NCBI GenBank assembly: GCA_964016885.1
Contig: OZ024751.1
Location: 21,266,001 to 21,330,000 of the forward strand
Direction: 5' to 3'
From: Eledone cirrhosa
Taxonomy: Eukaryota
DNA length: 64,000 nucleotides
Positions 2,547-36,799 of this stretch are shown piece by piece. The translations under genes and the position numbers were made by a program. The notes under the pieces were generated by a model. It did no database searches and was not told the origin of the DNA. It worked only from the letters and a program-made list of their open reading frames with translations. Position 1 is the first letter of the stretch. Every line of letters begins with the position of its first letter.

Positions 2547-2621
<75 letters not shown>

Positions 2622-3993: not shown

Positions 3994-4255
3994 ATATATA
4001 TATATATATATAAATCGATATGGACAAACTGTAATATAATAATTAGTATACTTCAATCTGGCTAAATTTTTCTTTTGCAATATATATACAGATGTGTTGG
4101 TATCTGTGTTTCATCACATACATATTAATTTATACACTGCTCAGGGGATATTTTTCCTCATTCGAGCTGATTCCATTGTAAAAGAATTCATTATCTTATT
4201 AATTTTATATATATATATCTCCATCTATCTGTTTGTCTATCTAGTTTATTGACAT

Positions 4256-4342
4256 CCATTATTGTTAAAGATTTTATGTAAAACCCCCGTCGTCACGTCT
4301 TGCAATGTCCCATTTTTGTACGCCCTTGTGGCAAATAAAGAC
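4256..4342 (+). mobile_element. 5'-truncated Tx1 3'UTR fragment (5' edge approximate)
   Basis: Ends CCCTTGTGGCAAATAAAGAC followed by (TATC)n. Confidence 0.8.
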
Positions 4343-4349
4343 ATCTATC

Positions 4350-4400
<51 letters not shown>

Positions 4401-4405
4401 CTATC

Positions 4406-4449
4406 TGTATTGTCCCCTTTCTTGTTGCGCCCTTGTGGCTAATAAAGAA

Positions 4450-4450
<1 letters not shown>
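4406..4450 (+). mobile_element. 45-bp Tx1 3' terminal fragment
   Basis: TGTATTGTCCCC...CCCTTGTGGCTAATAAAGAAA between two (TATC)n tracts. Confidence 0.8.
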
Positions 4451-4513
<63 letters not shown>

Positions 4514-4722
4514 GGGATGGACACACGCGTATAACTTGCTGAGTAAGTTCTGTTTAAATTTCTATAGAAATTCTTGTCTGATAACTTTAATTTTTGTACC
4601 ATTTTGTAGAGGGACTGCCAGGTCAAACTTTGATCTGGTCAGTCTCTCAAAATATTCTACGCCTTTAGGCGAAATAGTTAAAAAAAAAGTTTTTTCTTGT
4701 TGAAAAGTCAATATTTTTTTAA

Positions 4723-6504
4723 ATGGCCGAAGCTTCTTCACCAAAATTCGAAGGAGGAAAGGGGAAGATGAACTTACAGCTTCCCCCTGCCACTGTCACA
4801 GTAGCAGAGGTCAAGAAGATAGGTCAGCCAGAGGAAGAATTCTCTCCACCTGTTAACCGACAACTTGACGTTACCATGGCAACAACCCAAAGAACCAACA
4901 GCAACAACAACAACAATGCGACGGTAGAAAACAACACCAATAACAATAACAATAACAACAACAAGACCAATAACGGTGACAACAACAACAATGATAACAA
5001 CAACACCACCAACGACAACAACAACACAAACAAACAAAATTTCTCCTTCGCCGAGACGACAAGGAAAACCCTCGACTATCTGCCAGTAGATATAACAAAA
5101 GCGAAGGAGCTACTGGCGGATGCGAAAAAATATATAGTGTACGGGGAAAATGGTTCATTCACAATCCATTCCCCCCCGGAACTAAAAAGCCAGAGACTCC
5201 TAAACACGGTCATGTTTAGGACAATCTCGAACAAAAGTAAAAAACCAGCTCAACCATCACAGAGCGAGATAGAGCTGGTTTTAAAAGACGTCATGAAGGA
5301 CATCACCTTCATTCAGAAGGATAGACTCTACGGGAGTCTATCCATTCTCATGAAGGACAGGGACACAGCAGTGAAACTGTCCATCAAACCAATCACATCC
5401 ACCGCATACACCTTCTACCCTACGTACATGGGTAGAAGAACACAAAAAATAAAAATCCACACCATCCTGCCGATTATGGACATATGGTGGGTTTTGACAG
5501 GTTTTCTGGACCTGGAGGATGACATGCTGGTGTCCATGGGAAAGGCATCGGGTGACGCGTTCAGTGGAACGAGCCTCGAACTTGTAGTTCAAATGAGGCC
5601 CGAAAGGATCGCCCAGATCCCTGAACGCGTCATACTGGATGATCTAACCTTCATCAACATTACCGTTGAGGGTAGACGGCCCTCGTGTTACCTCTGCGGA
5701 ACCAGAGGTCACCTGAGGGCTGTCTGTCCCCAACTTAATAAGAAAACCCCAATCCTGCCTACACCACCAACAACTGCACAACCAACACAATCACCACAAC
5801 AACCACTACAAAAACAACCACCACAGCTCAAACCAAAACAAAACAATGTCCAACCCATCCCCTCCACTCAAAAAACAAAAACAATTTCCAAAACACCCGT
5901 ACCGCAAACACAACCCGAAAATATACCCCTCCCCTCCAACGCGGAAGATGACCCTAGTTCGTCGTCAGACGAGGAGGAGCACTTCCACACAATCAAAAGA
6001 AAAAAAAGAAAACACACCTCAGACACACAAATGAAAAAAACCCCTCCCCAAAACATAACACTGACACCAACACAAAAGAGCTCACAACAGCAAACAAAAA
6101 ACACCACACAAAAACAAAAACATGCATACACATACATAAATACAAGAAACAAAAAACTGTTAAACATTGTGTACAACAACAATCTAATAAAAACACAAGG
6201 GCCTAACTTCACCCAGGCAGGGGATTTCCCCCACCTCAAAATGATTAAGGCCCCACAGGACACCTATAAAACTTTAAAAAACAATTTTAAAGAGGACGTG
6301 GGTCCCCCCTGCGTCGGGCCCATTAACCGAGTCCTCCTAAAAAACTATCCCACCCCCTCCCCAAACACCCTCACAACTCCAAGCTCCCCAACCACACAAC
6401 ACACTGATGCCCCCACACTTCCACAAACCACCACCCCACCCAACAACCCATCCCCCACCCTAATGGAAATTGTGCAGCCCGATACCCGGGACGCAGAGAG
6501 GTAA
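4723..6504 (+). CDS. T1 ORF1, gag-like nucleic-acid-binding protein
   Basis: 593 aa; VEGRRPSCYLCGTRGHLRAVC CCHC knuckle; Asn-rich and Pro/Thr-rich linkers; homologous to the T2 ORF1. Confidence 0.9.
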   Translation: MAEASSPKFEGGKGKMNLQLPPATVTVAEVKKIGQPEEEFSPPVNRQLDVTMATTQRTNSNNNNNATVENNTNNNNNNNNKTNNGDNNNNDNNNTTNDNNNTNKQNFSFAETTRKTLDYLPVDITKAKELLADAKKYIVYGENGSFTIHSPPELKSQRLLNTVMFRTISNKSKKPAQPSQSEIELVLKDVMKDITFIQKDRLYGSLSILMKDRDTAVKLSIKPITSTAYTFYPTYMGRRTQKIKIHTILPIMDIWWVLTGFLDLEDDMLVSMGKASGDAFSGTSLELVVQMRPERIAQIPERVILDDLTFINITVEGRRPSCYLCGTRGHLRAVCPQLNKKTPILPTPPTTAQPTQSPQQPLQKQPPQLKPKQNNVQPIPSTQKTKTISKTPVPQTQPENIPLPSNAEDDPSSSSDEEEHFHTIKRKKRKHTSDTQMKKTPPQNITLTPTQKSSQQQTKNTTQKQKHAYTYINTRNKKLLNIVYNNNLIKTQGPNFTQAGDFPHLKMIKAPQDTYKTLKNNFKEDVGPPCVGPINRVLLKNYPTPSPNTLTTPSSPTTQHTDAPTLPQTTTPPNNPSPTLMEIVQPDTRDAER

Positions 6505-6528
6505 GTGCCTTTTCTCTTCACCACCAAC

Positions 6529-9500
6529 ATGGCTATGCTAAGAGTAGGCTGTTTAAATGCGCGTGGCCTGGGCTCAACTTGGAAGCAAGCAATGCTTCTA
6601 AATGACCTCAGGTCACAACGTATAGATGTGATGGTTATTTGCGAGGCCCGGATCAGCAACGTGCGACAGCTGGCCCCCACCTTTGATGACTTTGAGATGC
6701 ACGCATCTCTCTGTCAGCCTGGAGGTGGGGGTGGAGTTGTCGTTCTGCTGCAAAAACATCTGGGTCTCGCAACACAGATGGTACATTTGGACCCGGAGGG
6801 TCGACTAGTGGTTCTGGACCTTGGCAGTGGTAAAGGCGGAGCGTTTAGGTTGGTAGCCGCCTACGGCCCTTTCGGGTCAATGCGGCCGGACTTCTTCCAT
6901 CGTCTGGAGACTTTTCTAGGGACGTCCCGCTCCTTGCTATTAGTGGGGGACTGGAATGGTATCCTAGATGCACGTTGGGACTACGTAGGGGCCTGCCCCG
7001 ATAGAGAGGGGTGTAATAGCCTCAAAGGGTTAATCGGTCGATTTGACCTGGCCGATAGATATCGACTAGATTTTCCGACTGCGCCAACCTGGACTTGGGC
7101 AAATCGTAGCGGATCATCTAGGTCGTACCTAGATAGGTTCTTAGTTAGAATTAAGGATAAGGACTTTTTAAGTTGTCCAAAAATGCGCATTGTTGGCTAT
7201 TCAGACCACAAATTAGTGACCTGCATGGTCAACCTTGACAGAACTCATAGACAGGGCCCCGGTTACTGGAAGCTCAACTTGTCCTTGCCGGCAAGTAGAG
7301 CCTACAGGAATCGGATTAGTACGTTAGTTAAGGAACGGTTGACTGGAGCGATCGTCAACAGCAGGTGGTGGGTATCTCTAAAGAGAGAGATTAGAGTAGT
7401 CTCGATAGAATTTAGTAAGGTTCTAGCTGCGGATAGGAATAGGAAGGAAAGGGAGCTAATAGATAGAGTAGAAGAGGCAATTAGAAGCGGCGACGTGGCC
7501 AGAGTGCTAGCGTCGAGAACGGCTTTGAGCCAGTTTTTCGACGCGAAGCACGAAGGCTGCGTTGTCCGAAGTAAAATACGTGCTCTAGGGAACGAGGGGA
7601 CCAAAGCTGTTAGCTGGGCCCGCGTGACAGAGGCCAACAGTGGAACTAAATCCACCATCCGGTCTTTGCGAGACCTGGATGGACGGGCGATTCTTGAGCC
7701 TAAGCAGATGTGTGAGGCCTTTCAAAGGCACTTTGCCCGACTGTTCGGGAGGGGCGGGGAGCCGGTTGGGAACGTGGACTTCGGTCCATACCTCGACGGC
7801 CTGCCGCGCCTCTCGGACAGGGAGGCGAAGTCCTGCGAGGAGCCGATTTCGGCCGCTGAGATAGAGGACGTGCTGAGCCAATGCGGCAAACGCAAATCCC
7901 CGGGTCTCGATGGTCTTCCTTACGAATTATATCTAGCTATGCCGGACTTGTTCCCCGATCTCCTCGAGGCGGTCTACTGCAACTGGCAACAGAACGGGAG
8001 AATTCCCTGTACTGTGACCAAGGGCGTAGTCACGCTAGTGAGGAAGGACGAGAACAAGGGGGACGAAATAAGTAACTTCAGGCCCATAACACTGCTAAAT
8101 ACAGAGTTACAGATTTTGGCCAAGGTGCTAGCAAAGAGGTTGGCGCTTGTCGTGGGCAACCTGGTGGGAGATGCGCAGACATGCGCTATCCCGTCCAGGT
8201 CCATCCATGACAACCTCCACCTCATGCGATACATCATAGAGAGGGTTGGGAACGAACCCGGCTTTGGTGGGGCTCTGATCAACTTGGATCAATCTAAGGC
8301 GTTCGATAGGGTCGACCATGGTTACCTGGATGCGGTGCTAGCGGCGGCAGGCTTCGGAGCCGTTTTCAGGGGCTGGATCACTGCTATGCACAGCAGCCGC
8401 ATCTGCTCTAGGGTCAAGGTGAACGGCTACCTCTCGGAGCCGTTCAAAATCGCGCGGTCCATCCGACAAGGGTGCCCTCTCTCCTCCCTTCTGTATGTAT
8501 TGACTCTCGAGCCACTACTGCGGAAGTTGGAGTTGTTGCAGGGCATCCCTTTGGAACCGGGATTGCGGAAAGCGGTGTCGGCCTACGCCGATGACGTGAC
8601 AGTAATGGTGTCGACGGCCTCCGAAATCGAGGCGGTCGGCACCTTACTGGAGGAGTACGAAAAGTTCACAGGGGCTAAGCTGAACCGGGACAAGTCGATC
8701 GGTTTGCAACTCGGCACGTGGAGGGGCAGACCGATGCCCTCCGATAGCGTCGTCGGACGCTGGACGGAGGGCCCGGTGAAGTTGCTCGGGGTCTGGTTCG
8801 GACCGGACCTCCAGGTGGAGAAAAACTGGGCGGAGGTTACGAACAGAGTGTTTGCACTGACCCAGAAGTGGGCCAGTTGCAAACTATCCCTGAAAGGTCG
8901 GGCGGAGGTGGCGAACACCTACATAGCGTCCGTCATCTACTACCGCCTGACCGTAGTGCCCTGCCCAAGGGAAACCCTCACCAAGATGGAGCGCGCGCTC
9001 TTCCAATTCCTTTGGAAGAGGCGGGCTCCTATGGTGAGGAGATCCATCTGCTGTCAACACCCTTCGAAAGGAGGGCTGGGGATGCCGTGGCTAATGATGC
9101 GTAAACACGCATTAAGGCTACGGCACCTCTACGTATTCCTCACCGGACAACCGGTGTGGGCCTCGTTTGTGAGACGAACCTTTCCCAGACTCGTCTCACT
9201 CACCGAGCTGCAATCCTGGGTCAAGCAAAGACCGAGAAAACTGGGCGCCTGGCACACTGAGTGTGCCCAGGCGCTCACCGCCCTCTGGCAGGCGGATCCG
9301 GTTATCAGTGGAGACTCCACCGCAACATTCTATAGAGGGCTGGTACGCAGCAGGTGCGACGACGCCCTCGGAGAAGCCCTAGACATGGAGGAGGACGAAC
9401 TGGCCAGCCTTTTCGGTAGGACATTCAGCCCGGGACCTATGGACAACTTCCAGAAGTCCCTGGCCTGGCAGTGCTACCGAGGGGCTTTACCCGTTCGAGA

Positions 9501-9966
9501 AAGGCTCTACAGACACGGGCGCCCGGGTAGGGACCCCGCCAAAAAGATCTGTCCCAGATGCGTGTGCGACGAGGAAACCGTTGCACACGCATTAGTACAC
9601 TGCTCGGGCGTAGCCGATCTGTGGGGCTATGTCGAACAACTGCTGTCAAGGGTGGGACCGATCCGGTTGACCACCGAGTCTATTGTAATGATCAAGCCGC
9701 CTCCCCCCTTCAAAGATGAAGCAGAGGCGGTGTTTCTGTGCGTAATAGCCATGGCGAAAGAGGTTGTATGGTGGACGCGTCTGAAAGGACTGAGGTCGGG
9801 CACCTTTCTCTCTGGCCAACAACTGGTCCGTTTCTTCCGATATCATTTCGGAAGAAGGATCAGGATGGAGAGAGAGGTGCTGCACCCCAGCCGTTTCTAT
9901 GAAAGATGGGTGAAAGTGGCGAGAATGGCCCGTGTGAATGGGCCTTCACTCTACATCAGACTATAG
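6529..9966 (+). CDS. T1 ORF2, APE endonuclease + reverse transcriptase + CCHC
   Basis: LNARG, GDWN, YLDR and SDH (APE); KSPGLDG, FRPITLLN, DQSKAFDRV, RQGCPLS and YADD (RT); CPRC..H..C; first ATG at 6529 in AACATGG context. Confidence 0.96.
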   Translation: MAMLRVGCLNARGLGSTWKQAMLLNDLRSQRIDVMVICEARISNVRQLAPTFDDFEMHASLCQPGGGGGVVVLLQKHLGLATQMVHLDPEGRLVVLDLGSGKGGAFRLVAAYGPFGSMRPDFFHRLETFLGTSRSLLLVGDWNGILDARWDYVGACPDREGCNSLKGLIGRFDLADRYRLDFPTAPTWTWANRSGSSRSYLDRFLVRIKDKDFLSCPKMRIVGYSDHKLVTCMVNLDRTHRQGPGYWKLNLSLPASRAYRNRISTLVKERLTGAIVNSRWWVSLKREIRVVSIEFSKVLAADRNRKERELIDRVEEAIRSGDVARVLASRTALSQFFDAKHEGCVVRSKIRALGNEGTKAVSWARVTEANSGTKSTIRSLRDLDGRAILEPKQMCEAFQRHFARLFGRGGEPVGNVDFGPYLDGLPRLSDREAKSCEEPISAAEIEDVLSQCGKRKSPGLDGLPYELYLAMPDLFPDLLEAVYCNWQQNGRIPCTVTKGVVTLVRKDENKGDEISNFRPITLLNTELQILAKVLAKRLALVVGNLVGDAQTCAIPSRSIHDNLHLMRYIIERVGNEPGFGGALINLDQSKAFDRVDHGYLDAVLAAAGFGAVFRGWITAMHSSRICSRVKVNGYLSEPFKIARSIRQGCPLSSLLYVLTLEPLLRKLELLQGIPLEPGLRKAVSAYADDVTVMVSTASEIEAVGTLLEEYEKFTGAKLNRDKSIGLQLGTWRGRPMPSDSVVGRWTEGPVKLLGVWFGPDLQVEKNWAEVTNRVFALTQKWASCKLSLKGRAEVANTYIASVIYYRLTVVPCPRETLTKMERALFQFLWKRRAPMVRRSICCQHPSKGGLGMPWLMMRKHALRLRHLYVFLTGQPVWASFVRRTFPRLVSLTELQSWVKQRPRKLGAWHTECAQALTALWQADPVISGDSTATFYRGLVRSRCDDALGEALDMEEDELASLFGRTFSPGPMDNFQKSLAWQCYRGALPVRERLYRHGRPGRDPAKKICPRCVCDEETVAHALVHCSGVADLWGYVEQLLSRVGPIRLTTESIVMIKPPPPFKDEAEAVFLCVIAMAKEVVWWTRLKGLRSGTFLSGQQLVRFFRYHFGRRIRMEREVLHPSRFYERWVKVARMARVNGPSLYIRL

Positions 9967-10275
9967 GTGAGGAAGATGAAAGACCAAGGGAGCACCCCTT
10001 CTCTGTGCTCCTGAGGAGAAGGGTTGCACACTTTTTTCGGGGGTGTGTGCGACCCCCCCAAGGCGCCTCCTCTCTATTGAGGATTTTGTTAAAAATTTTA
10101 TTTTTTGTTATATCTTATTTTATTTTTATATTTTGTTATTGCCTCCTCCTTATTGAGGACGCCTTTTTGTGTAAACTCCCCCCTTTGTACTTGTCCCACT
10201 TTTGATGCCCTAGTGGCAAATAAAAGAAATATATCTATCTATCTATCTATCTATCTATCTGTCTGTCTATCTATC

Positions 10276-10586
10276 CACTAAATTTACTGAAAGGTGGGTG
10301 AATGAAGCGAAAATGGCCCGAGTGATTGGGCCTTCTCTGTTTATAAGCCTGTAGGTTGAAGAAGAGATCAAAAGGAAGAAAGGAGGACTTGCACAACACG
10401 CTCCTGAAGTTGAGGGTTGTTCTATCGACGGGATATTAAACAACCCATTTGTGGTGCCTCCCCCCTATAGGGGATTTCCATTGTTATAATTGTTTGTTTC
10501 AATATTTTTACACAACTGTATGTAAAATCCCCGGCATGTCTTTGTATTGTCCCTTTTCTTGTGCGCCCTTGTGGCAAATAAAGAAA
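10276..10586 (+). mobile_element. 5'-truncated Tx1 copy (end of ORF2 + 3'UTR)
   Basis: Encodes ERWVNEAKMARVIGPSL; same 3' terminus; TATC flanks. Confidence 0.9.
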
Positions 10587-10626
10587 TCTGTCTATCAATC
10601 TCTCTATCTATCTATCTATCTATCTA

Positions 10627-11190
10627 TTGTCGCGGGTGGGACCAATCCGGTTGACCACCGAGTCCATTGTCATGATCAAACCGCCACCCTACTTCAAAAA
10701 CGAAGGAGAGGCGGTTTTCCTTTGTGTGATAGCTATGGCGAAAGAGGTTGTATGGTGGACAAGGTTGAAAGGGCTTAGGTCAGACACCTTTCTCTCCGGC
10801 CAACAACTGATTCTTTTTTTCAAATACCATTTTGGAAGAAGAATCAGGATGGAGAGAGAGGTGCTGTACCCAAGCAAGTTTTATGAAAGGTGGGTGAATG
10901 TGGCAAAGATGGCCCGAGTGGTTGGGCCTTCTCTCTATATCAGCCTGTAGGTTGAGGAAAAGGAGGAGGAGAGGAAGGGAGTACAAACTCTTCATACTCC
11001 TGGAGATGAGGGTTGCACATTTTTTTTTCGGGGGTATGTGTTACCCATATAAACTGTCTCCCCCTATTGGGGAAAATCGACTAATTTTTAAATTGCATTT
11101 GTGATAACATTTTACACGTTTTTATTGTATGTAAACTTCCCCCTTTGTATTTGTCCTCTTCTTTTGTGCCCCTGTGGCTAATAAAGAAAC
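10627..11190 (+). mobile_element. 5'-truncated Tx1 copy (last ~106 codons of ORF2 + 3'UTR)
   Basis: SRVGPIRLTTESIV...GPSLYISL matches the T1 ORF2 C-terminus; TATC flanks. Confidence 0.92.
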
Positions 11191-11191
11191 A

Positions 11192-11222
<31 letters not shown>

Positions 11223-11223
11223 A

Positions 11224-11267
<44 letters not shown>

Positions 11268-11854
11268 AGAAAGATATCTATCTATCTATCTTTCCATCAA
11301 TCCTATCTATCCATTGACTCATCCATCTGTTCATTCATCCACCTATCAATCCATAAATCCACCCATCAACCGGCCAATCTACCCGCCCCCAATCCACCCA
11401 CCTGATCAACCACCAACCAATCCATCCACCCATCCATCCATCGATCCATCCATCTACTCATCCATCTAGTCTGTGAACTGTACCAAGATCCAGTTGATGA
11501 CTCAACGACTGTAGTCAAGGAGACCAACCAACAAACCATCCAACTGGTCATCCAACATTGACCCAACGACCGAGCAATTATGTGGTCACACCACCAGCTA
11601 GAAATAGCAGCTAAATATATATATCTCTCTCTCTCTGAAAGTATCCTGGCCATCATTAAATATAAGAGGACAGGGAAGGACAGCGACAATATAGTTCTAG
11701 ATATAAACATGGTACAAACATTGCAAAAAATAAAAATAACAAATGCAGGGAGGCCACAACCTCTGCAACGTCTTTGAATGTGGGCTGACCTCGGGCTAAA
11801 CAACAATAACAAAAGCAAACCCGCTGACCAACTCACCATCATACTAAGCAATCA

Positions 11855-15462: not shown

Positions 15463-16016
15463 AAATTTCTTTATTAGCCACAAGGGCACAAACGAAGGGG
15501 ACAAATACAAACGGGGAGTTTACATACAGGTATATGAAAATAAAACTATTAATAAAACAACAAATAACAATTGAAATCCCCAATAGGGGGGAGGTATTAC
15601 ACAGGGGTTGTACACACCCCGAAAAAATGTACAACCCTCATCTCCAGGAGCACCAAGAGTGAGTACTCCCTTCCTCTCTTCCTCTTTTTCCTCAACCTAC
15701 AGGCTTATATAGAGAGAAGGGCCAACCACTCGGGCCATCTTTGCCACATTCACCCACCTTTTATAAAATGTGCTGGGGTACAGCACCTCTCTCTCCATCC
15801 TGATTCTTCTTCCAAAATGATATTTGAAAAAACGAATCAGTTGCTCGCCGGAGAGAAAGGTGTCTGACTTCAGCCCTTTTAACCTCGTCCACCATATAAC
15901 CTCTTTCACCATAGCCATAACACATAAGAAAACCGCCTCGCCCTCGTTTTTGAAGGAGGGTGGCGGTTTGATCATGACAATGGACTCGGTGGTCAACTGG
16001 ATTGGTCCCACCCGCG

Positions 16017-16017
<1 letters not shown>
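15463..16017 (-). mobile_element. 5'-truncated Tx1 copy, minus strand, next to (GATA)n
   Basis: SRVGPIQLTTESIV...GPSLYISL; terminal CCCTTGTGGCTAATAAAGAAA; same orientation relative to the repeat as the plus-strand copies. Confidence 0.92.
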
Positions 16018-16091
<74 letters not shown>

Positions 16092-18405: not shown

Positions 18406-18442
<37 letters not shown>

Positions 18443-26866: not shown

Positions 26867-27642
26867 ATTCTCCATCTTCTTCCATCATTCCATCTTCAAC
26901 ACACATGCTACCGAAGTACCGAACCGCTGATGTTTCCAATGATATTTCTTATTGCCATTGGCTATCTTTGGAAATCAAATGTTTTGTGTTTATTTTCATC
27001 CTATTTCTTTCTTCTCCAACTCCTTTATTGCCTCTTCTTCTTCTTTTTCTTCTAATTCTGTTGTTGCTGTTGTTTTGTATTATTTTCATTTTTTTTTTTA
27101 CGTTCTCCAGTCCTTCGCTTTCTCTCCGTTTATTGATCAGTAAAAGTAATGCCAAGCCAAAACAAACACCAAAAAATCCAAAGCTAAGCAAGTAGAATTG
27201 GATGTGTTGGTGGGTGTTGTGAAGACGGAAGTTAAGCAAAGAATCATTGATGGAAGGAAGGAAGGAAAGAAGGAAGGAAGAAAAGAAGGGAGCAAGTGAT
27301 GCATAAGGGGGGGGGGGTAAGGTGGAAGTTATGTTCTATTGACATCATTTATTGCCAGCTGTTAGGAGATTTAGTTTCAAATAATTCGTTTTATTTTTGT
27401 CACCATCAATATTATTATTATTATTATTATTGAATGCCATGGTTGACGGAGGCTCGGCTCTGTAAGGTATAGTAATTTTTAACCGTTAAAACAATTGTAA
27501 ATTGTTTAAAACTTGAACCAAATTGTTGATAAAGACACCCTCCTCCTCGTGAGAGGGGTCTTTCTGTCCGTTATTTGGCCCTTCGGGGTTAAATAGCCAG
27601 TTATTGGGGTTTTGTACCCAAAATTTCATTTTAAACAAAAAC

Positions 27643-29742
27643 ATGGCTACCAAAAAAAAAAAATTTCATACGTCACTCCCACTCATTCCGTCTTCTTCTT
27701 CCTCAATCATCACTACAGGAGAGAGAAGATTGTCTCTCTCCCTCCCTTCTTTAAATGTGTCTCTCTCCCTACCTTCTCTTTCGCAAGCGACGAAAGAAAA
27801 GAAAAGTCTCGTGCAAAGCGTGCAAGGTTTCTCCACGACGACGACGACAGCGACGAAACAGGTGTGCGGGAAATACGAAAACCCAGTTCATTCGTCTGAC
27901 GTCAGGAATAATAGCAGTAGCAGCCGTAATAACAACAGCAACAGTGACAATGAAAACAACAGTAGCAGCCGCAACAGCATCACCAGCAGCATAAACAACA
28001 ACAGCATTAGCAGCAGCAACACCAACAACAACCACAGCAACAGCGGCGGAGGCAGTAGTCGTAGTACCTGCAGCAACAACAAAAGTACCAGCAGCTCTGA
28101 CGACAACAACAACAGCAGAGAAAAACCAATCTCATTTGCAGGTATTGCGAAAAACCTGGAAACAATCCTCATAACAAATGAGGAATTAGAGGAAGCGAAG
28201 AAGATGGTGACAAAGAACGGACACCGAGCAATCTGCAAGGCAGCGAAAAATTTTTTCGAAACCCAAGAGCACTGTACGGTCACGTACCGTACAGTAAGTA
28301 CAAAATCCCGTAGGGTGGAAAGAGCCACAGAGGCCCAAATACAAAAAGCCTTGGGGTCTGTGTGGCAGAGGAAAACGCACATCACCCGAGGCAAAAAATA
28401 CGCCACCGTAGACGTACTTTTTGCCACACCCCAGGAGGCAAAGGCCCAATCAGTAGTGACCCTAAGGAGCGAAGAAATGGTGTTGGTGCCCTCCTACTGC
28501 GGGCAAAAAATTGTGAGGGTCAAACTGACCCACGTCCCCCCCGGAATGACCCCTTCTTGGCTGGCCGCGTCTGTCCTCGTCGGAATCGAGGACAAAACAA
28601 CTGTACTGCAAGTACAGAAAAAAGTAAGAGAAGATTGGGTCGGCTCCTCCATTGAGATGCTAATCCAAACCAACCAGGAGTGCATCGAAGCTATCCCGGA
28701 TGTGATAGACTTCGATAACGGCACTCAACTGCCCATAAGTGTTGAGGGCAAACGCCCGAAATGCTTTCGCTGTGGATCGAAGACTCACCTCAGGGCCTTC
28801 TGCAACGAGAAGACCCTGAGAAAGGAGAAAACCCCCCTCCTCCCGAATCCGGTTCCACGGCTACCAGCAACAGGACAAGCGGCAACCAGGAACGATAGGT
28901 CCGTGGCACCCATACCCACTCCACGGAAATCAAAGACAGCAGCAGCAGTGGAAATATTAACAACAACAACAGCAATACCAAATGCAGCTGCAACAGAGAC
29001 TCCAGTGCAAACATCACCAACAACAACAAGTGAAAGAGTGGAGCTGGTACCCCTCCCCGACCTTACAGAATCAGACATGGAGTGTGAGGTGGGAGAGGGA
29101 TGGCAAAAGGTCTCAAGAAGGCACAAACGCAGAAGCAGCGCATCGTCGCCTTTGAAAAGGGAGGAAAGAAATGAGAAAAGGGTAAAGTCTACTGCAAAGA
29201 GACCCACAGCAGCAACACCACCAACACCATCACCACCCACACCAGCACCACCATCACCACCGGCGACAACCCCACCGCCAACAACACCTTCAACACCACC
29301 ACCACAAGCACCAACATCGCAAACACAACAACAAAACACACACACCCAGCAACAACGACAAGAAAATAGCAGAACCACACCCCACCCCCAGAAAAACAAA
29401 TGCACGGCAATAAACACACACAACAAGAAACTAATGACTTACATAATTGAACACACAGACATTTCACAACAGGACTACATAATACCAGCACCAATCAAAA
29501 CGCCAACTAACATAAGACTGCTAAAAATAGCACAGAAACAATACACAAACATTAAAACGAAATTCCCCAACGCAGTTGGTGATTTCAGGGACCTAGGAGG
29601 AACCATTAATCGAAGAGTATATTCAGACATTCTCTTAGAAGAGCCGACGACCAGCCGAAGGGACGATTCAACGGTCCCTTCACCAGACGATCAAGTGAAA
29701 AGGGATGTAAAAACCATCCCTCCTCTACCAAAAATACGGTAA
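27643..29742 (+). CDS. T2 ORF1, gag-like protein
   Basis: ATG at 27643; VEGKRPKCFRCGSKTHLRAFC knuckle; Ser/Asn-rich and Pro/Thr-rich linkers. Confidence 0.9.
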   Translation: MATKKKKFHTSLPLIPSSSSSIITTGERRLSLSLPSLNVSLSLPSLSQATKEKKSLVQSVQGFSTTTTTATKQVCGKYENPVHSSDVRNNSSSSRNNNSNSDNENNSSSRNSITSSINNNSISSSNTNNNHSNSGGGSSRSTCSNNKSTSSSDDNNNSREKPISFAGIAKNLETILITNEELEEAKKMVTKNGHRAICKAAKNFFETQEHCTVTYRTVSTKSRRVERATEAQIQKALGSVWQRKTHITRGKKYATVDVLFATPQEAKAQSVVTLRSEEMVLVPSYCGQKIVRVKLTHVPPGMTPSWLAASVLVGIEDKTTVLQVQKKVREDWVGSSIEMLIQTNQECIEAIPDVIDFDNGTQLPISVEGKRPKCFRCGSKTHLRAFCNEKTLRKEKTPLLPNPVPRLPATGQAATRNDRSVAPIPTPRKSKTAAAVEILTTTTAIPNAAATETPVQTSPTTTSERVELVPLPDLTESDMECEVGEGWQKVSRRHKRRSSASSPLKREERNEKRVKSTAKRPTAATPPTPSPPTPAPPSPPATTPPPTTPSTPPPQAPTSQTQQQNTHTQQQRQENSRTTPHPQKNKCTAINTHNKKLMTYIIEHTDISQQDYIIPAPIKTPTNIRLLKIAQKQYTNIKTKFPNAVGDFRDLGGTINRRVYSDILLEEPTTSRRDDSTVPSPDDQVKRDVKTIPPLPKIR

Positions 29743-29777
29743 GTGGTCTTTCCCATCTTTTCCACTCTATTTTAAAC

Positions 29778-32700
29778 ATGACCTCACTCAGAATAGGCAG
29801 CATAAATGCGCGTGGCTTGGGGTCGTCATGGAAGCAGGGTCACCTGCTCAACGACCTCAGGTCACTAAACATAGATGTAGTGGCCATCAGCGAGACCAGA
29901 ATCTCCGAAGCACGGGCCTTCGCACCGATCTTCGGCGGCTACGATGTGTACGCATCTCCCAGCCGTCCTGGATCGGGTGGAGGAGTTGCTGTGCTTTTTC
30001 GGAGAGGTTTGGATCTCGCCATACGGGCCATCTTCCTGGACCCAGAGGGTAAGCTGGTGGTGCTGGACGTGACCAGCGGAGACGGGCAAGCTTTCAGGCT
30101 AGTGGCCGTCTATGCCCCGACAGGAGCAGGGCGGCCTGATTTCTTCCGGCGTCTGGAGACCTTTCTTGGAACGTCGCGCTCTTTAGTGTTAGTGGGCGAC
30201 TGGAACGGGATCTTAGATGCACGCTGGGACTGTGTGGGATTAGCGGATAGGGGTGGAGGGTGCAAGAGCCTCACCAACCTGCTCAGGCGTTTTGAACTGT
30301 CTGACAGGTACCGATTGGATTTCCCGAATGTGCCAATGTGGACTTGGACAAACCGCATAGGGTCATCCAGATCATATCTAGATAGAGTATTTTGTAGGGA
30401 AATAGATAGGTCTAGCATAGGCTGTCCACAATTCAAGATAGTCAGCTACACGGACCACAAATTCGTGATCTGTGTGCTTGACTTAGATAGGCTTCATAGA
30501 CGAGGACCCGGCTACTGGAAGCTAAACGCGTCCTTACCAGCGCGCAAGGCCTACAGAGACCGGATTAGCGAACTAGTTAAGCGGGCGTTGACGGGGGCCA
30601 TCGTCAACAACAAGTGGTGGTTTGCTCTGAAAAGAGCGATTAGAATAGAATCGATTAGGTTTAGTAAGGCTTTAGCAATAGAGAAAAATAGAGCAGAGGG
30701 AGAACTAGTTAGAAAATTAGACGAGGCGCTTAGCAAAGGCATTGCGACCGACGTGCTTGCGGCGAAATTGGCCCTTGACCAATTCTTCAATGCAAAGCAC
30801 GAAGGCTGCGTTGTCAGAGCTAGGGTGCGTGCTCTCAGACACGAGGGGACGAAAGCCGTTCAATGGGCCCGAGTGGCGGAGGCGCGTCGTGGCAACAAAG
30901 CCACGATCCGGTCTTTGGTGGACCACGACGGGCGCATGCTACTCGATCCCGGGCAAATGTGTGAAGCTTTTCAGCGACACTTCGCTCAGCTGTTCGGGGG
31001 CAGCGGGGGGCCGGGTAGAGGGATGGACTTTAGTGTCTACCTCGACGGACTGCCGCGGCTCTCGGCCACTGAGGCGAAGTGTTGCGAAAAGCCGATAACA
31101 GCCGCTGAAGTAAGGGAGGCAATGACTGGCTGCACAAGGGGTAAATCGCCTGGTTTGGATGGTCTGCCCTATGAACTTTACGTACAGATGCCAGACTTGT
31201 TCGGAGGCCTCTTGGCGGACGTCTACTGCAACTGGCAACAGAACGGGAGAATTCCCAGTTCTGTGAGCCGAGGAGCGGTGGCACTGCTGAGAAAGGATCC
31301 GAACAAGGGGGATAACATAGACAATTTCCGGCCCATAACTCTGCTAAACACAGAGTTTAAGATTTTGGCCAAGGTGCTAGCAAAGAGGTTGGCGCTTGTC
31401 GTTGGTGGTCTGGTGGGAGAGGCGCAGACATGCGCCATTCCCGACAGATCCATCCACGACAACCTCCACCTCATGCGATACATCGTAGAGAGGGTAGCTA
31501 GGGAACCTGGCACGGGTGGGTCCTTGATCAATTTAGATCAGTCGAAAGCTTTCGATAGGGTCGACCATCGTTACCTAGCGGCAGTCCTGAGGGCGGCTGG
31601 CTTTGGGCCCGTCTTCAGAGGCTGGATCGCTGCCATGCACAGCGACATCTGCTCTGTGGTGAGAGTGAACGGTCACCTGTCGGAACCGTTCAACATCATG
31701 CGCTCGGTCCGCCAAGGATGTCCCCTCTCGTCCCTCTTGTACGTATTGACTCTCGAGCCATTACTGCACAAACTGGAGACGTTGAGGGGAGTCCCGCGCG
31801 AACTAGGATGCGGAAGATCCGTGTCAGCATATGCGGACGATGTCACCGTAGTGGTGTCGAACGCCAAACACATCGAGGCGATCGGCACTACACTAAGAGA
31901 ATACGAAGCGGTGACAGGAGCAATGATCAACCAGGAAAAGTCAGTGGGCCTGCAGCTCGGCACCTGGAGAGGCAGGTCCATGCCGTCCAACAGCGTCGTC
32001 GGGCGCTGGACGGACGGACCGGTTAAATTGCTAGGGGTCTGGTTCGGTCCGGACCTCCAGACGGACAAAAACTGGGACGAGGTGACGAGCAGGGTGGCTT
32101 CTCTCACCCAGAAATGGGCGGAGAGGAAGCTATCCCTGAAAGGTCGAGCGGAGGTGGCTAACGCGTACATCGCGTCTGTCATCTGCTACCGCCTAACCGT
32201 CGTACCTTGTCCTAAGCCTCGCCTGACTGCGCTGGAGCGTTTGCTCTTTCGCTTTTTGTGGAAGGGACGTGCTCCGATGGTCAGGCGGTCCATCTGTTGT
32301 CAACACCCGCTACGTGGAGGGCTGGGCATGCCGTGGCTGATGATGCGCAGGCACGCGCTCAGGCTACGACATCTCCACCTCTTCCTCGACGGTGATCAGG
32401 TGTGGTCGCCGTTTGCTAGACGCGTTTTTCCCCAGCTCGTTTCCTTGACGGAGCTGCAGTCCTGGGTCAAGCGAAGACCGAGAGGGAGCGCCTGGAGACT
32501 GGAATGTCTTCAGGCGCTCACAGCCCTCGACCAATCGGGCAATGTGATCGGTGGAAACTCCACCTCGGCGTTCTATAGAGGATTAGTGGAGGGGAAGAGC
32601 GACGACGTACTTGGGGAAACTCTAGGCGTCGACGAAAATCAACTAGCCAATCTCTTCGGAAGAACCTTCGGGCCAGGGCCTATGGACAACTTCCAGAAAT

Positions 32701-33197
32701 CTCTGGCCTGGCAGTGCTACCGAGGAGCCTTGCCAGTTCGGGATAAACTCTACAGGCATGGAGGTGCCGTCAGCCGGGCATGTCCGAGATGCGCGCAGGG
32801 CGACGAAACCGTCCTGCACGCACTCGTCCAGTGTCCGAAAATTGCTGACTTGTGGGTTTATGTCGAACACCTGCTGTCGCGTTTAGGACGGATCCAGCTA
32901 TCATCTGAGTCTATCGTGAGGATTGCCCCGCCCTCCTCCTTTAGCCGGGAAGGGCAGGCAGTTTTTATCTGTCTGGTGGCCATGGCGAAAGAGATAGTAT
33001 GGTGGACACGTTTGAAAGGGCTGAAGACGAGCACTTACCTCTTCGGTGATGCTCTGATTGACTTTTTCAAATTTCATTTGAAAAGGAAAATCAGAGTAGA
33101 GAAGGAAGTGCTCTCTTCCCAGCATTTTGTTGAAAGATGGGTGAGAGAAGCAAGAATGGCCCGAGTGAATGGGCCGACTCTGAGTATATATCTGTAA
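29778..33197 (+). CDS. T2 ORF2, APE endonuclease + RT + CCHC
   Basis: 1139 aa; INARG, SETR, GDWN, YLDR and TDH; YADD; CPRC..H..C; colinear with T1 ORF2. Confidence 0.96.
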   Translation: MTSLRIGSINARGLGSSWKQGHLLNDLRSLNIDVVAISETRISEARAFAPIFGGYDVYASPSRPGSGGGVAVLFRRGLDLAIRAIFLDPEGKLVVLDVTSGDGQAFRLVAVYAPTGAGRPDFFRRLETFLGTSRSLVLVGDWNGILDARWDCVGLADRGGGCKSLTNLLRRFELSDRYRLDFPNVPMWTWTNRIGSSRSYLDRVFCREIDRSSIGCPQFKIVSYTDHKFVICVLDLDRLHRRGPGYWKLNASLPARKAYRDRISELVKRALTGAIVNNKWWFALKRAIRIESIRFSKALAIEKNRAEGELVRKLDEALSKGIATDVLAAKLALDQFFNAKHEGCVVRARVRALRHEGTKAVQWARVAEARRGNKATIRSLVDHDGRMLLDPGQMCEAFQRHFAQLFGGSGGPGRGMDFSVYLDGLPRLSATEAKCCEKPITAAEVREAMTGCTRGKSPGLDGLPYELYVQMPDLFGGLLADVYCNWQQNGRIPSSVSRGAVALLRKDPNKGDNIDNFRPITLLNTEFKILAKVLAKRLALVVGGLVGEAQTCAIPDRSIHDNLHLMRYIVERVAREPGTGGSLINLDQSKAFDRVDHRYLAAVLRAAGFGPVFRGWIAAMHSDICSVVRVNGHLSEPFNIMRSVRQGCPLSSLLYVLTLEPLLHKLETLRGVPRELGCGRSVSAYADDVTVVVSNAKHIEAIGTTLREYEAVTGAMINQEKSVGLQLGTWRGRSMPSNSVVGRWTDGPVKLLGVWFGPDLQTDKNWDEVTSRVASLTQKWAERKLSLKGRAEVANAYIASVICYRLTVVPCPKPRLTALERLLFRFLWKGRAPMVRRSICCQHPLRGGLGMPWLMMRRHALRLRHLHLFLDGDQVWSPFARRVFPQLVSLTELQSWVKRRPRGSAWRLECLQALTALDQSGNVIGGNSTSAFYRGLVEGKSDDVLGETLGVDENQLANLFGRTFGPGPMDNFQKSLAWQCYRGALPVRDKLYRHGGAVSRACPRCAQGDETVLHALVQCPKIADLWVYVEHLLSRLGRIQLSSESIVRIAPPSSFSREGQAVFICLVAMAKEIVWWTRLKGLKTSTYLFGDALIDFFKFHLKRKIRVEKEVLSSQHFVERWVREARMARVNGPTLSIYL

Positions 33198-33458
33198 ACT
33201 AAAGGTGGAAAACTGGGAGAGGGCACTTGCCTTGGTGGTCAGGGTCATTGTGGCTTTTTACTGGGCTTTCTCCACAAATGTCCCTCCGAAGTCTCCCCCC
33301 TATTGGGGAATTTTTCATTGTTATTTTCATTGTTATTTTTGTTACATCCTCTATTTTTGTTTTTTTTACACGCAGAAATGCCCATTTGTACCGTCCTGCA
33401 TTGTCCTGCACTGTCCTTAATGTCTACTTTATGTAAACCCTTGTGGTTAATAAAGAAA

Positions 33459-36599: not shown

Positions 36600-36799
36600 N
36601 NNNNNNNNNNNNNNNNNNNNNNNNNNNNNNNNNNNNNNNNNNNNNNNNNNNNNNNNNNNNNNNNNNNNNNNNNNNNNNNNNNNNNNNNNNNNNNNNNNNN
36701 NNNNNNNNNNNNNNNNNNNNNNNNNNNNNNNNNNNNNNNNNNNNNNNNNNNNNNNNNNNNNNNNNNNNNNNNNNNNNNNNNNNNNNNNNNNNNNNNNNN
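36600..36799. other. Assembly gap
   Basis: 200 N. Confidence 1.

What the first reader, a model, noticed from the sequence alone, without database searches (positions are those of the whole stretch)
4256..11230. Five Tx1 insertions stacked head-to-tail in one (TATC)n tract: a GATA-microsatellite-specific LINE
Seen: one full-length and four 5'-truncated, mutually diverged copies, all in the same orientation and separated by (TATC)n. A sixth copy (15463-16017) is inverted together with its (GATA)n flank. TATC is present at the 5' junctions of truncated copies, so it is not merely a 3' tail. Known: Tx1-clade elements include microsatellite-specific families (Kibi, (TC)n; Koshi, (TTC)n). Inference: this is a strand-specific (TATC)n-targeting family with both ORFs intact, possibly active. 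I am not aware of a described cephalopod example.
Basis: partly seen in the sequence, partly recalled or inferred. Interest (0 to 1): 0.72.

Follow-up and report, generated by a model that had tools for sequence, protein, structure and literature searches.

The report
Octopus retrotransposon targeting GATA microsatellites
A young, intact jumping gene in what is likely an octopus genome lands mostly inside GATA repeats in one orientation, while its close relatives sit in ATT repeats or a 72-base minisatellite, a natural series that would let one test what sets a retrotransposon's landing site.

Summary
Confirmed and extended. The stack holds one full-length L1-group LINE (two intact ORFs) and four 5'-truncated copies of sister subfamilies, all on one strand. 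Only 11 of the 36 follow an earlier copy. Off-target copies lack a TATC tail, and several insertions show 12-19 bp duplications. The window copy differs by 1-6 bases in 5.7 kb from six copies elsewhere, so the family is very young. Correction: full-length copies carry part of the 5' TATC themselves, so their flanks are not independent evidence. Microsatellite-specific Tx1 elements are known (Kibi, Koshi); a GATA target was not found in ten paper searches. Repbase and Dfam could not be searched, and Tx1 membership was not tested against a labelled reference. The scan noted this family before, on other DNA of this and another genome.

The parts
4238..4342 (+). copy 1, 3' UTR fragment of an older subfamily; degenerate TATC upstream
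4343..4405 (+). (TATC)n spacer
4406..4450 (+). copy 2, terminal 45 nt, identical to the end of the subfamily copy in L063
4451..4513 (+). (TATC)n spacer; its last bases are likely the element's own 5' leader
4514..10229 (+). full-length element of family A, ending in AATAAAAGAAA
4723..6504 (+). ORF1, 593 aa, one CCHC zinc knuckle (Pfam zf-CCHC E 0.051, below cut-off; motif seen directly)
6529..9966 (+). ORF2, 1145 aa: APE endonuclease, reverse transcriptase (YADD), C-terminal zf-RVT
9241..9277 (+). predicted 16-bp RNA hairpin at a 5'-truncation hot spot
10230..10274 (+). (TATC)n spacer
10275..10586 (+). copy 4, 5'-truncated, subfamily c4
10587..10623 (+). (TATC)n spacer
10624..11189 (+). copy 5, 5'-truncated, subfamily c5; first 4 nt (CTAT) shared with the repeat
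11190..11290 (+). (TATC)n, with a possible 7-nt terminal fragment of a further copy near 11268
   Evidence: the fragment is inferred
15466..16017 (-). copy 6, 5'-truncated
16018..16091 (-). (TATC)18 on the element's strand, 5' flank of copy 6
27431..33458 (+). full-length sister element of family B (ORF1 27643-29742, 699 aa; ORF2 29778-33197, 1139 aa), (ATT)n on both sides

Best explanation
This is a very young L1-group LINE whose copies sit in (TATC)n in one orientation, likely because its endonuclease nicks the GATA strand and a short repeat run at the RNA's 3' end pairs with the nicked strand to prime reverse transcription. Shown: the flank bias at truncated 5' junctions, the orientation, the lack of a fixed tail, short duplications and 1-3 nt microhomology. 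Inferred steps: (1) the RNA starts inside the upstream repeat and ends a short way past AATAAA in the downstream repeat; (2) APE nicks the GATA strand; (3) reverse transcription starts inside the paired repeat, so no poly(A) is copied; (4) a second nick about 12-19 nt along on the TATC strand makes the duplication; (5) the 5' end joins by microhomology, or by the repeat leader if full-length. Each insertion leaves TATC on both sides, so later copies of any sister subfamily stack head to tail. The endonuclease is predicted to set the target and RNA pairing to refine it.
For: 36 of 53 resolved 5' junctions in TATC, 1 in GATA, 25 of the 36 with no earlier copy upstream; background 0.35%. 11,838 of 16,792 exact 3' ends are followed by ATCTAT; reversed-pattern controls 0 and 7. 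Off-target copies L041, L049, L056, L059 have the local repeat on both sides and no TATC tail. Non-periodic duplications of 12 nt or more in 8 of 49 true flank pairs against 65 of 2352 mismatched pairs. Microhomology of 1 nt or more at 22 of 24 in-phase junctions. Leader: inverted copy L061 has 16 nt of TATC between two element parts, and the 4 nt before the start follow an internal SNP (9 of 9 against 1 of 19). Target follows the ORF2 tree with 2 changes over 18 rows. All 13 assignable ATT-tailed ends match the ATT clade best. APE catalytic residues are present (positions from PMC1950540 and recall).
Against: 16 of 53 junctions are off target, some with no duplication and no repeat (L105, L117, L124, L232, L239). 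No nicking or RNA data: no RNA run was listed. Two of the 8 duplications (L112, L227) are nearly periodic and weak, and L214 lies in a minisatellite. The 90 loci were the best matches to three 3' UTR queries, not a random draw; 37 were set aside (3 own window, 29 junction outside the locus, 5 rearranged). The tree is FastTree only, and near-copies cluster labels by themselves. The endonuclease domains of the TATC and minisatellite lineages differ little.
Confidence: 0.66

Rival explanations
1. RNA-guided choice: the endonuclease nicks AT-rich or simple-repeat DNA loosely, and only nicks that pair with the repeat at the RNA's 3' end prime. The target is then inherited through the flank of the source copy.
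For: The RNA likely carries repeat at both ends. Off-target sites begin with the same ATAT or TATC as the element's end. The minisatellite lineage is nested in the TATC clade and lands at ACTCTATATATAC. An earlier scan note (e1-9591889) suggests the same; it is not independent.
Against: About 30% of copies land off target, yet five TATC sublineages up to about 23% apart in ORF2 keep one target. No TATC-clade body with an ATT tail among 13 assignable ATT-tailed ends, although such single events occur (L049). Off-target pairing is only 3-7 nt.
Confidence: 0.25
2. TATC is only a 3' tail; TATC at 5' junctions comes from copies nesting in one another's tails for other reasons.
For: 11 of 36 TATC-flanked junctions follow an earlier copy; 7 of 21 TATC tracts in 790 kb follow an element end.
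Against: 25 of 36 have no earlier copy within 160 nt; off-target copies have no tail; duplications include non-repeat flank (L219, L126, L132, L235).
Confidence: 0.04
3. The stack arose by tandem duplication, unequal exchange, selective retention in repeats, or assembly error.
For: Tandem full-length copies with identical spacers exist (L024-L026, L072), so DNA-level duplication or multimeric RNA makes some arrays.
Against: The five copies belong to different subfamilies and are cut at different points; the youngest copies already show the bias; retention would not give one orientation.
Confidence: 0.03

Closest known systems
Kibi (TC)n, Koshi (TTC)n and crocodilian Tx1 families (TTCC)n/(TTTC)n (PMC4494074, passages and section 15; PMC3812793, passages)
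   Same: APE-type non-LTR elements inserted into a microsatellite; passes the paper's criterion of more than 20% of flanks.
   Different: Target (TATC)n/(GATA)n, with a sister clade in (ATT)n; cephalopod host inferred; kinship with Kibi/Koshi not tested.
Xenopus Tx1L in the non-autonomous piggyBac Tx1D (PMC4494074, passage)
   Same: Lineage C sits at one register in a tandem array inside a TTAA/CCC-ended repeat.
   Different: C is nested in a microsatellite-targeting clade; whether it retrotransposes or rides its host repeat is open.
Dong (TAA)n elements (PMC3812793, passage; R4 clade with restriction-like endonuclease, partly recalled)
   Same: Family B uses the same trinucleotide repeat class.
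   Different: B encodes APE and two ORFs, so the shared target would be convergent.
L1-Tx1 families annotated in Octopus vulgaris (PMC13282606: first third of text, passages, one supplement)
   Same: 13 recently active L1-Tx1 families, 421 insertions; 80 consensus families in all. Orthologues of these families may be among them.
   Different: The words 'target' and 'nested' do not occur in that text; no target analysis was found. Its library could not be compared.
Human LINE-1 ORF2p
   Same: Best solved-structure match over residues 8-857, E 1.9e-48.
   Different: L1 primes on T-tracts from a poly(A) tail; here poly(A) was seen once (L108).

Membership tests
L1-group non-LTR retrotransposon | ORF2 with N-terminal APE, RT and C-terminal zinc motif, most like L1 | tested here: met
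   Pfam Exo_endo_phos 5.3e-8, RVT_1 9.8e-26, zf-RVT 3.9e-5; L1 ORF2p E 1.9e-48 against R2 2e-18
L1-group non-LTR retrotransposon | 5'-truncated copies, inversions and target-site duplications | tested here: met
Tx1 clade | RT phylogeny groups with Tx1L, Keno, Kibi, Koshi | not testable with these tools
   three homologue searches and two cluster look-ups gave no sequence named Tx1
Tx1 clade | ORF1 with a CCHC zinc knuckle (feature recalled) | tested here: inconclusive
   CX2CX4HX4C seen at residues 323-336; Pfam E 0.051, below cut-off; plant L1s share it (recalled)
target-specific Tx1 family (Kojima 2015 criterion) | one sequence type in more than 20% of flanks | tested here: met
   36 of 53 5' junctions; 11,838 of 16,792 3' ends; criterion read
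Kibi / Koshi | target (TC)n or (TTC)n | tested here: not met
   target is (TATC)n; sister clade (ATT)n
Dong / R4 | single ORF with restriction-like endonuclease (recalled) | tested here: not met
   A and B have two ORFs and APE
catalogued Repbase or Dfam family | entry with this sequence and target | not testable with these tools
   neither library is held

The most novel reading that the evidence does not exclude
An octopod-specific radiation of L1/Tx1-type elements has switched target at least twice inside one genome (GATA, ATT, a 72-bp minisatellite) with two lineages still active, and the switch is carried by the repeat at the RNA's own ends plus a few endonuclease changes such as loop residue 194. 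The landing site would then be reprogrammable by editing a short RNA tail.
Probability: 0.25. Interest if true: 0.78.

Novelty: new variant of a known kind. Interest (0 to 1): 0.5.

Why it matters
How APE-type elements pick microsatellites is described as not well understood (PMC3812793, passage). Here two intact, near-identical-copy families in one genome share 62% of their endonuclease and 79% of their RT yet use different repeats, so domain, loop and RNA-tail swaps can separate endonuclease choice from RNA pairing. The clade is also a sizeable part of the genome (at least 16,792 exact 3' ends) and sits beside about a third of sampled GATA tracts, which bears on microsatellite markers in octopods.

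Tried and rejected
Rfam: nothing at gathering score over 4200-34000; only a chance-level SL2 hit, E 0.78, in the 5' UTR, so no known ribozyme. Sequencing runs: no RNA holder listed; laying contigs of four runs showed no informative joints. Labelled Tx1 reference: not obtained. APE alone against solved structures: only a spurious repeat-protein hit. Kojima and Fujiwara 2004 is not held and the supplements of PMC4494074 could not be read; its tree figure and supplement list further Tx1 targets that could include GATA. A maximum-likelihood tree did not finish, so FastTree was used. The idea that copies 5 and 6 are one duplicated event or a non-autonomous family was dropped: their starts differ by a few bases and truncation points scatter from 257 to 1611 nt. 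Full-length 5' flanks were rejected as evidence of targeting because part is element-borne. The ORF2 hairpin shows change on both sides at only 1 of 9 consensus pairs, so conservation as RNA structure is not shown. Junction calls had errors (L106, L116, L118, L216, L222) and were redone; the duplication test used the older calls with 9 rows left out.

Full report
Observation. The stack is real. Five copies lie on the + strand between 4238 and 11189, separated by (TATC)n; a sixth lies on the - strand at 16017-15466 with (TATC)18 on its 5' side. The long copy has ORF1 (593 aa) and ORF2 (1145 aa; APE, RT, zf-RVT) open. ORF2 matches human L1 ORF2p over 850 residues, E 1.9e-48. Named homologues are from Argonauta hians (69% over half of the RT region) and Acanthosepion pharaonis (52%), so an octopod host is inferred.

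Age. The first 207 nt gave 1248 candidates; all 40 scored were 100% identical. Ten complete copies taken from that list differ from the window copy by 1, 1, 2, 3, 4, 6, 24, 28, 28 and 49 substitutions in 5.7 kb. Seven of the ten keep both ORFs at full length; L064 has a shorter ORF1, L065 a broken ORF2, L067 a broken ORF1. The choice favours young copies. Present-day activity is inferred, not shown.

Target or tail. I took the 30 best loci for each of three 3' UTR queries and called 5' junctions against full-length subfamily copies. Of 90 loci, 3 were the window, 29 had the junction outside the locus and 5 were rearranged. Of the 53 left, 36 have two or more TATC units within 30 nt, 1 has GATA, 16 have neither. 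Background is 549 of 157,526 windows. Only 11 of the 36 follow an earlier copy, close to the 7 of 21 TATC tracts that follow an element end in 79 evenly spaced 10-kb stretches. So stacking is what a repeat-seeking element would give, with no need for self-recognition. In those 79 stretches a profile found 20 ends: 13 TATC-type, 6 ATT-type, 1 lineage C; by eye 8 of 9 truncated TATC-type junctions were in TATC. Genome-wide, 11,838 of 16,792 exact 3' ends are followed by ATCTAT.

The tail is not fixed. Copies in (TA)n, (AAT)n or a 10-bp minisatellite have that repeat on both sides and no TATC run (L041, L049, L056, L059). Most other off-target ends keep only YATATCT. Non-periodic duplications of 12 nt or more occur in 8 of 49 true flank pairs and 65 of 2352 mismatched pairs; the clear cases (L219, L126, L132, L235, L057) give about 12-19 nt once shared letters are removed. 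Many copies show none. Of 24 junctions in perfect repeat phase, 22 share 1 nt or more with the element; about a quarter would by chance (arithmetic, not simulated). One copy has a poly(A) run before the repeat (L108).

A correction. All 30 full-length 5' flanks examined end in ATCT, CTCT or TCTT, most after a TATC run, but part of this belongs to the element. The four bases before the start follow an internal SNP: ATCT in 9 of 9 copies with one allele (the window included), in 1 of 19 with the other; two were not scorable and three are a tandem set. L061 is a twin-priming type inversion in which 16 nt of TATC lie between element positions 4332 and 1, far from genomic flank. The RNA therefore likely starts inside the upstream repeat.

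Sister lineages. A second full-length element lies at 27431-33458, with intact ORFs (699 and 1139 aa) and (ATT)n on both sides. Its ORF2 is 69% identical to A: 62% in APE, 79% in RT. Its 30 best 3' loci and 30 best 5' loci are all ATT-flanked, 14 of the latter in tandem; copies are 99.8-100% identical over 1.77 kb. A related ATT family has 1169 exact ends; truncated 5' junctions in ATT were seen by eye but not scored. Lineage C has 325 exact ends (332 with a shorter pattern plus the minisatellite's first letters). It made up 12 of the first 30 ends on contig C1 and always sits at one register of a 72-bp tandem unit inside a repeat that starts TTAACCC in 2 of 8 loci. All 8 copies whose 5' side was fetched are full-length with one derived junction, which favours transport inside the host repeat; shared ORF2 changes are 10 silent to 7 replacing, against 57 to 127 for private ones, which favours several active sources. 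It is unresolved. In a FastTree of 32 ORF2 rows the TATC and ATT lineages are sister groups, C is nested among TATC rows, and three labels need 2 changes. Of 17 distinct ATT-tailed ends carrying the TATC-type terminal 16-mer, 13 match the ATT clade best (two weakly) and 4 are too short. About 25 APE positions separate TATC from ATT rows; one, 194 (S or N against I or M), aligns with the tip of the betaB6-betaB5 loop that alters L1 nicking when grafted (PMC1950540, passages; the mapping is my inference). These positions also track ancestry, so they are candidates only.

Mechanism. Standard target-primed reverse transcription (established knowledge) fitted to these junctions: nick on the GATA strand, pairing with a short repeat run at the RNA 3' end, internal start, second nick 12-19 nt on, 5' joining by microhomology or leader. 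Targeting as such I put near 0.93. That the endonuclease is the main selector I put at 0.66, RNA pairing as main selector at 0.25. The argument is indirect: target stays fixed along lineages although about 30% of insertions miss.

Known work. Microsatellite-specific APE elements are established: Kibi, Koshi, crocodilian Tx1 families, Waldo, Mino (PMC4494074 passages and section 15; PMC3812793 passages; PMC4640811 passages; PMC3747384 passages). Active L1-Tx1 families are annotated in Octopus vulgaris without target analysis in the parts read (PMC13282606). Ten searches of the open library (listings only beyond the papers named) showed no GATA-targeting or cephalopod microsatellite-targeting Tx1. 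Repbase, Dfam, Kojima and Fujiwara 2004 and the supplement of PMC4494074 were not seen and could hold one. Three earlier notes of this scan describe the same family on other DNA; I read them after my own counts.

Verdict. A real, well-supported new target within a known kind of element. A specialist would find it plausible rather than startling. Its value is the matched set of young, intact relatives with different targets. Interest 0.5.

Noticed in passing
window 27431-33458 (+): Intact full-length sister LINE flanked by (ATT)n; young family with tandem arrays of up to five copies at 6.1-kb spacing (G000:C2 near 188.05 Mb).
   Followed up: yes
L322-L351, L352-L359, L201: Lineage C inside a 72-bp minisatellite of a TTAA/CCC-ended repeat, listed copies clustered near contig ends; all sampled copies full-length. 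Retrotransposition or transport with the host repeat is open.
   Followed up: partly
window 9241-9277 (+): Predicted 16-bp RNA hairpin (z -4.7) in ORF2; 7 of 53 truncations fall 979-990 nt from the 3' end, in or just before its 5' arm, in two subfamilies. Covariation is weak.
   Followed up: partly
window 4543-4548, 6501-6506, 27462-27467, 29739-29744: Splice-donor-like GTAAGT or GTAAGG in the 5' UTR and over the ORF1 stop codon in both A and B, each ORF1 site followed by a pyrimidine run. No RNA data.
   Followed up: no
window 11268-11274: AGAAAGA inside the last TATC tract resembles the terminal bases of the copy-1 subfamily; possibly a sixth, 7-nt insertion in the stack.
   Followed up: no
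L024-L026, L063-L064, L072: Tandem full-length A copies with identical idiosyncratic spacers of 36-70 nt: unequal exchange or multimeric RNA.
   Followed up: no
L038, L062 2830-2937, L070 1-701: Complex junctions: a fold-back of the TATC leader, and minus-strand fragments joined head to head with full-length copies.
   Followed up: partly
L108: Single copy with about 23 A between the element end and the repeat, suggesting occasional copying from a poly(A) tail.
   Followed up: no
runs X5, X6: Near-identical pieces at depth 2-6 in runs labelled as two other organisms; could be diet, environment or contamination.
   Followed up: no
window 36600-36799: 200-N assembly gap, away from both elements.
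   Followed up: no
window 2547-2621 and 18409-18440: (TATC)18 and (GATA)8 tracts with no element end beside them: unoccupied targets.
   Followed up: no
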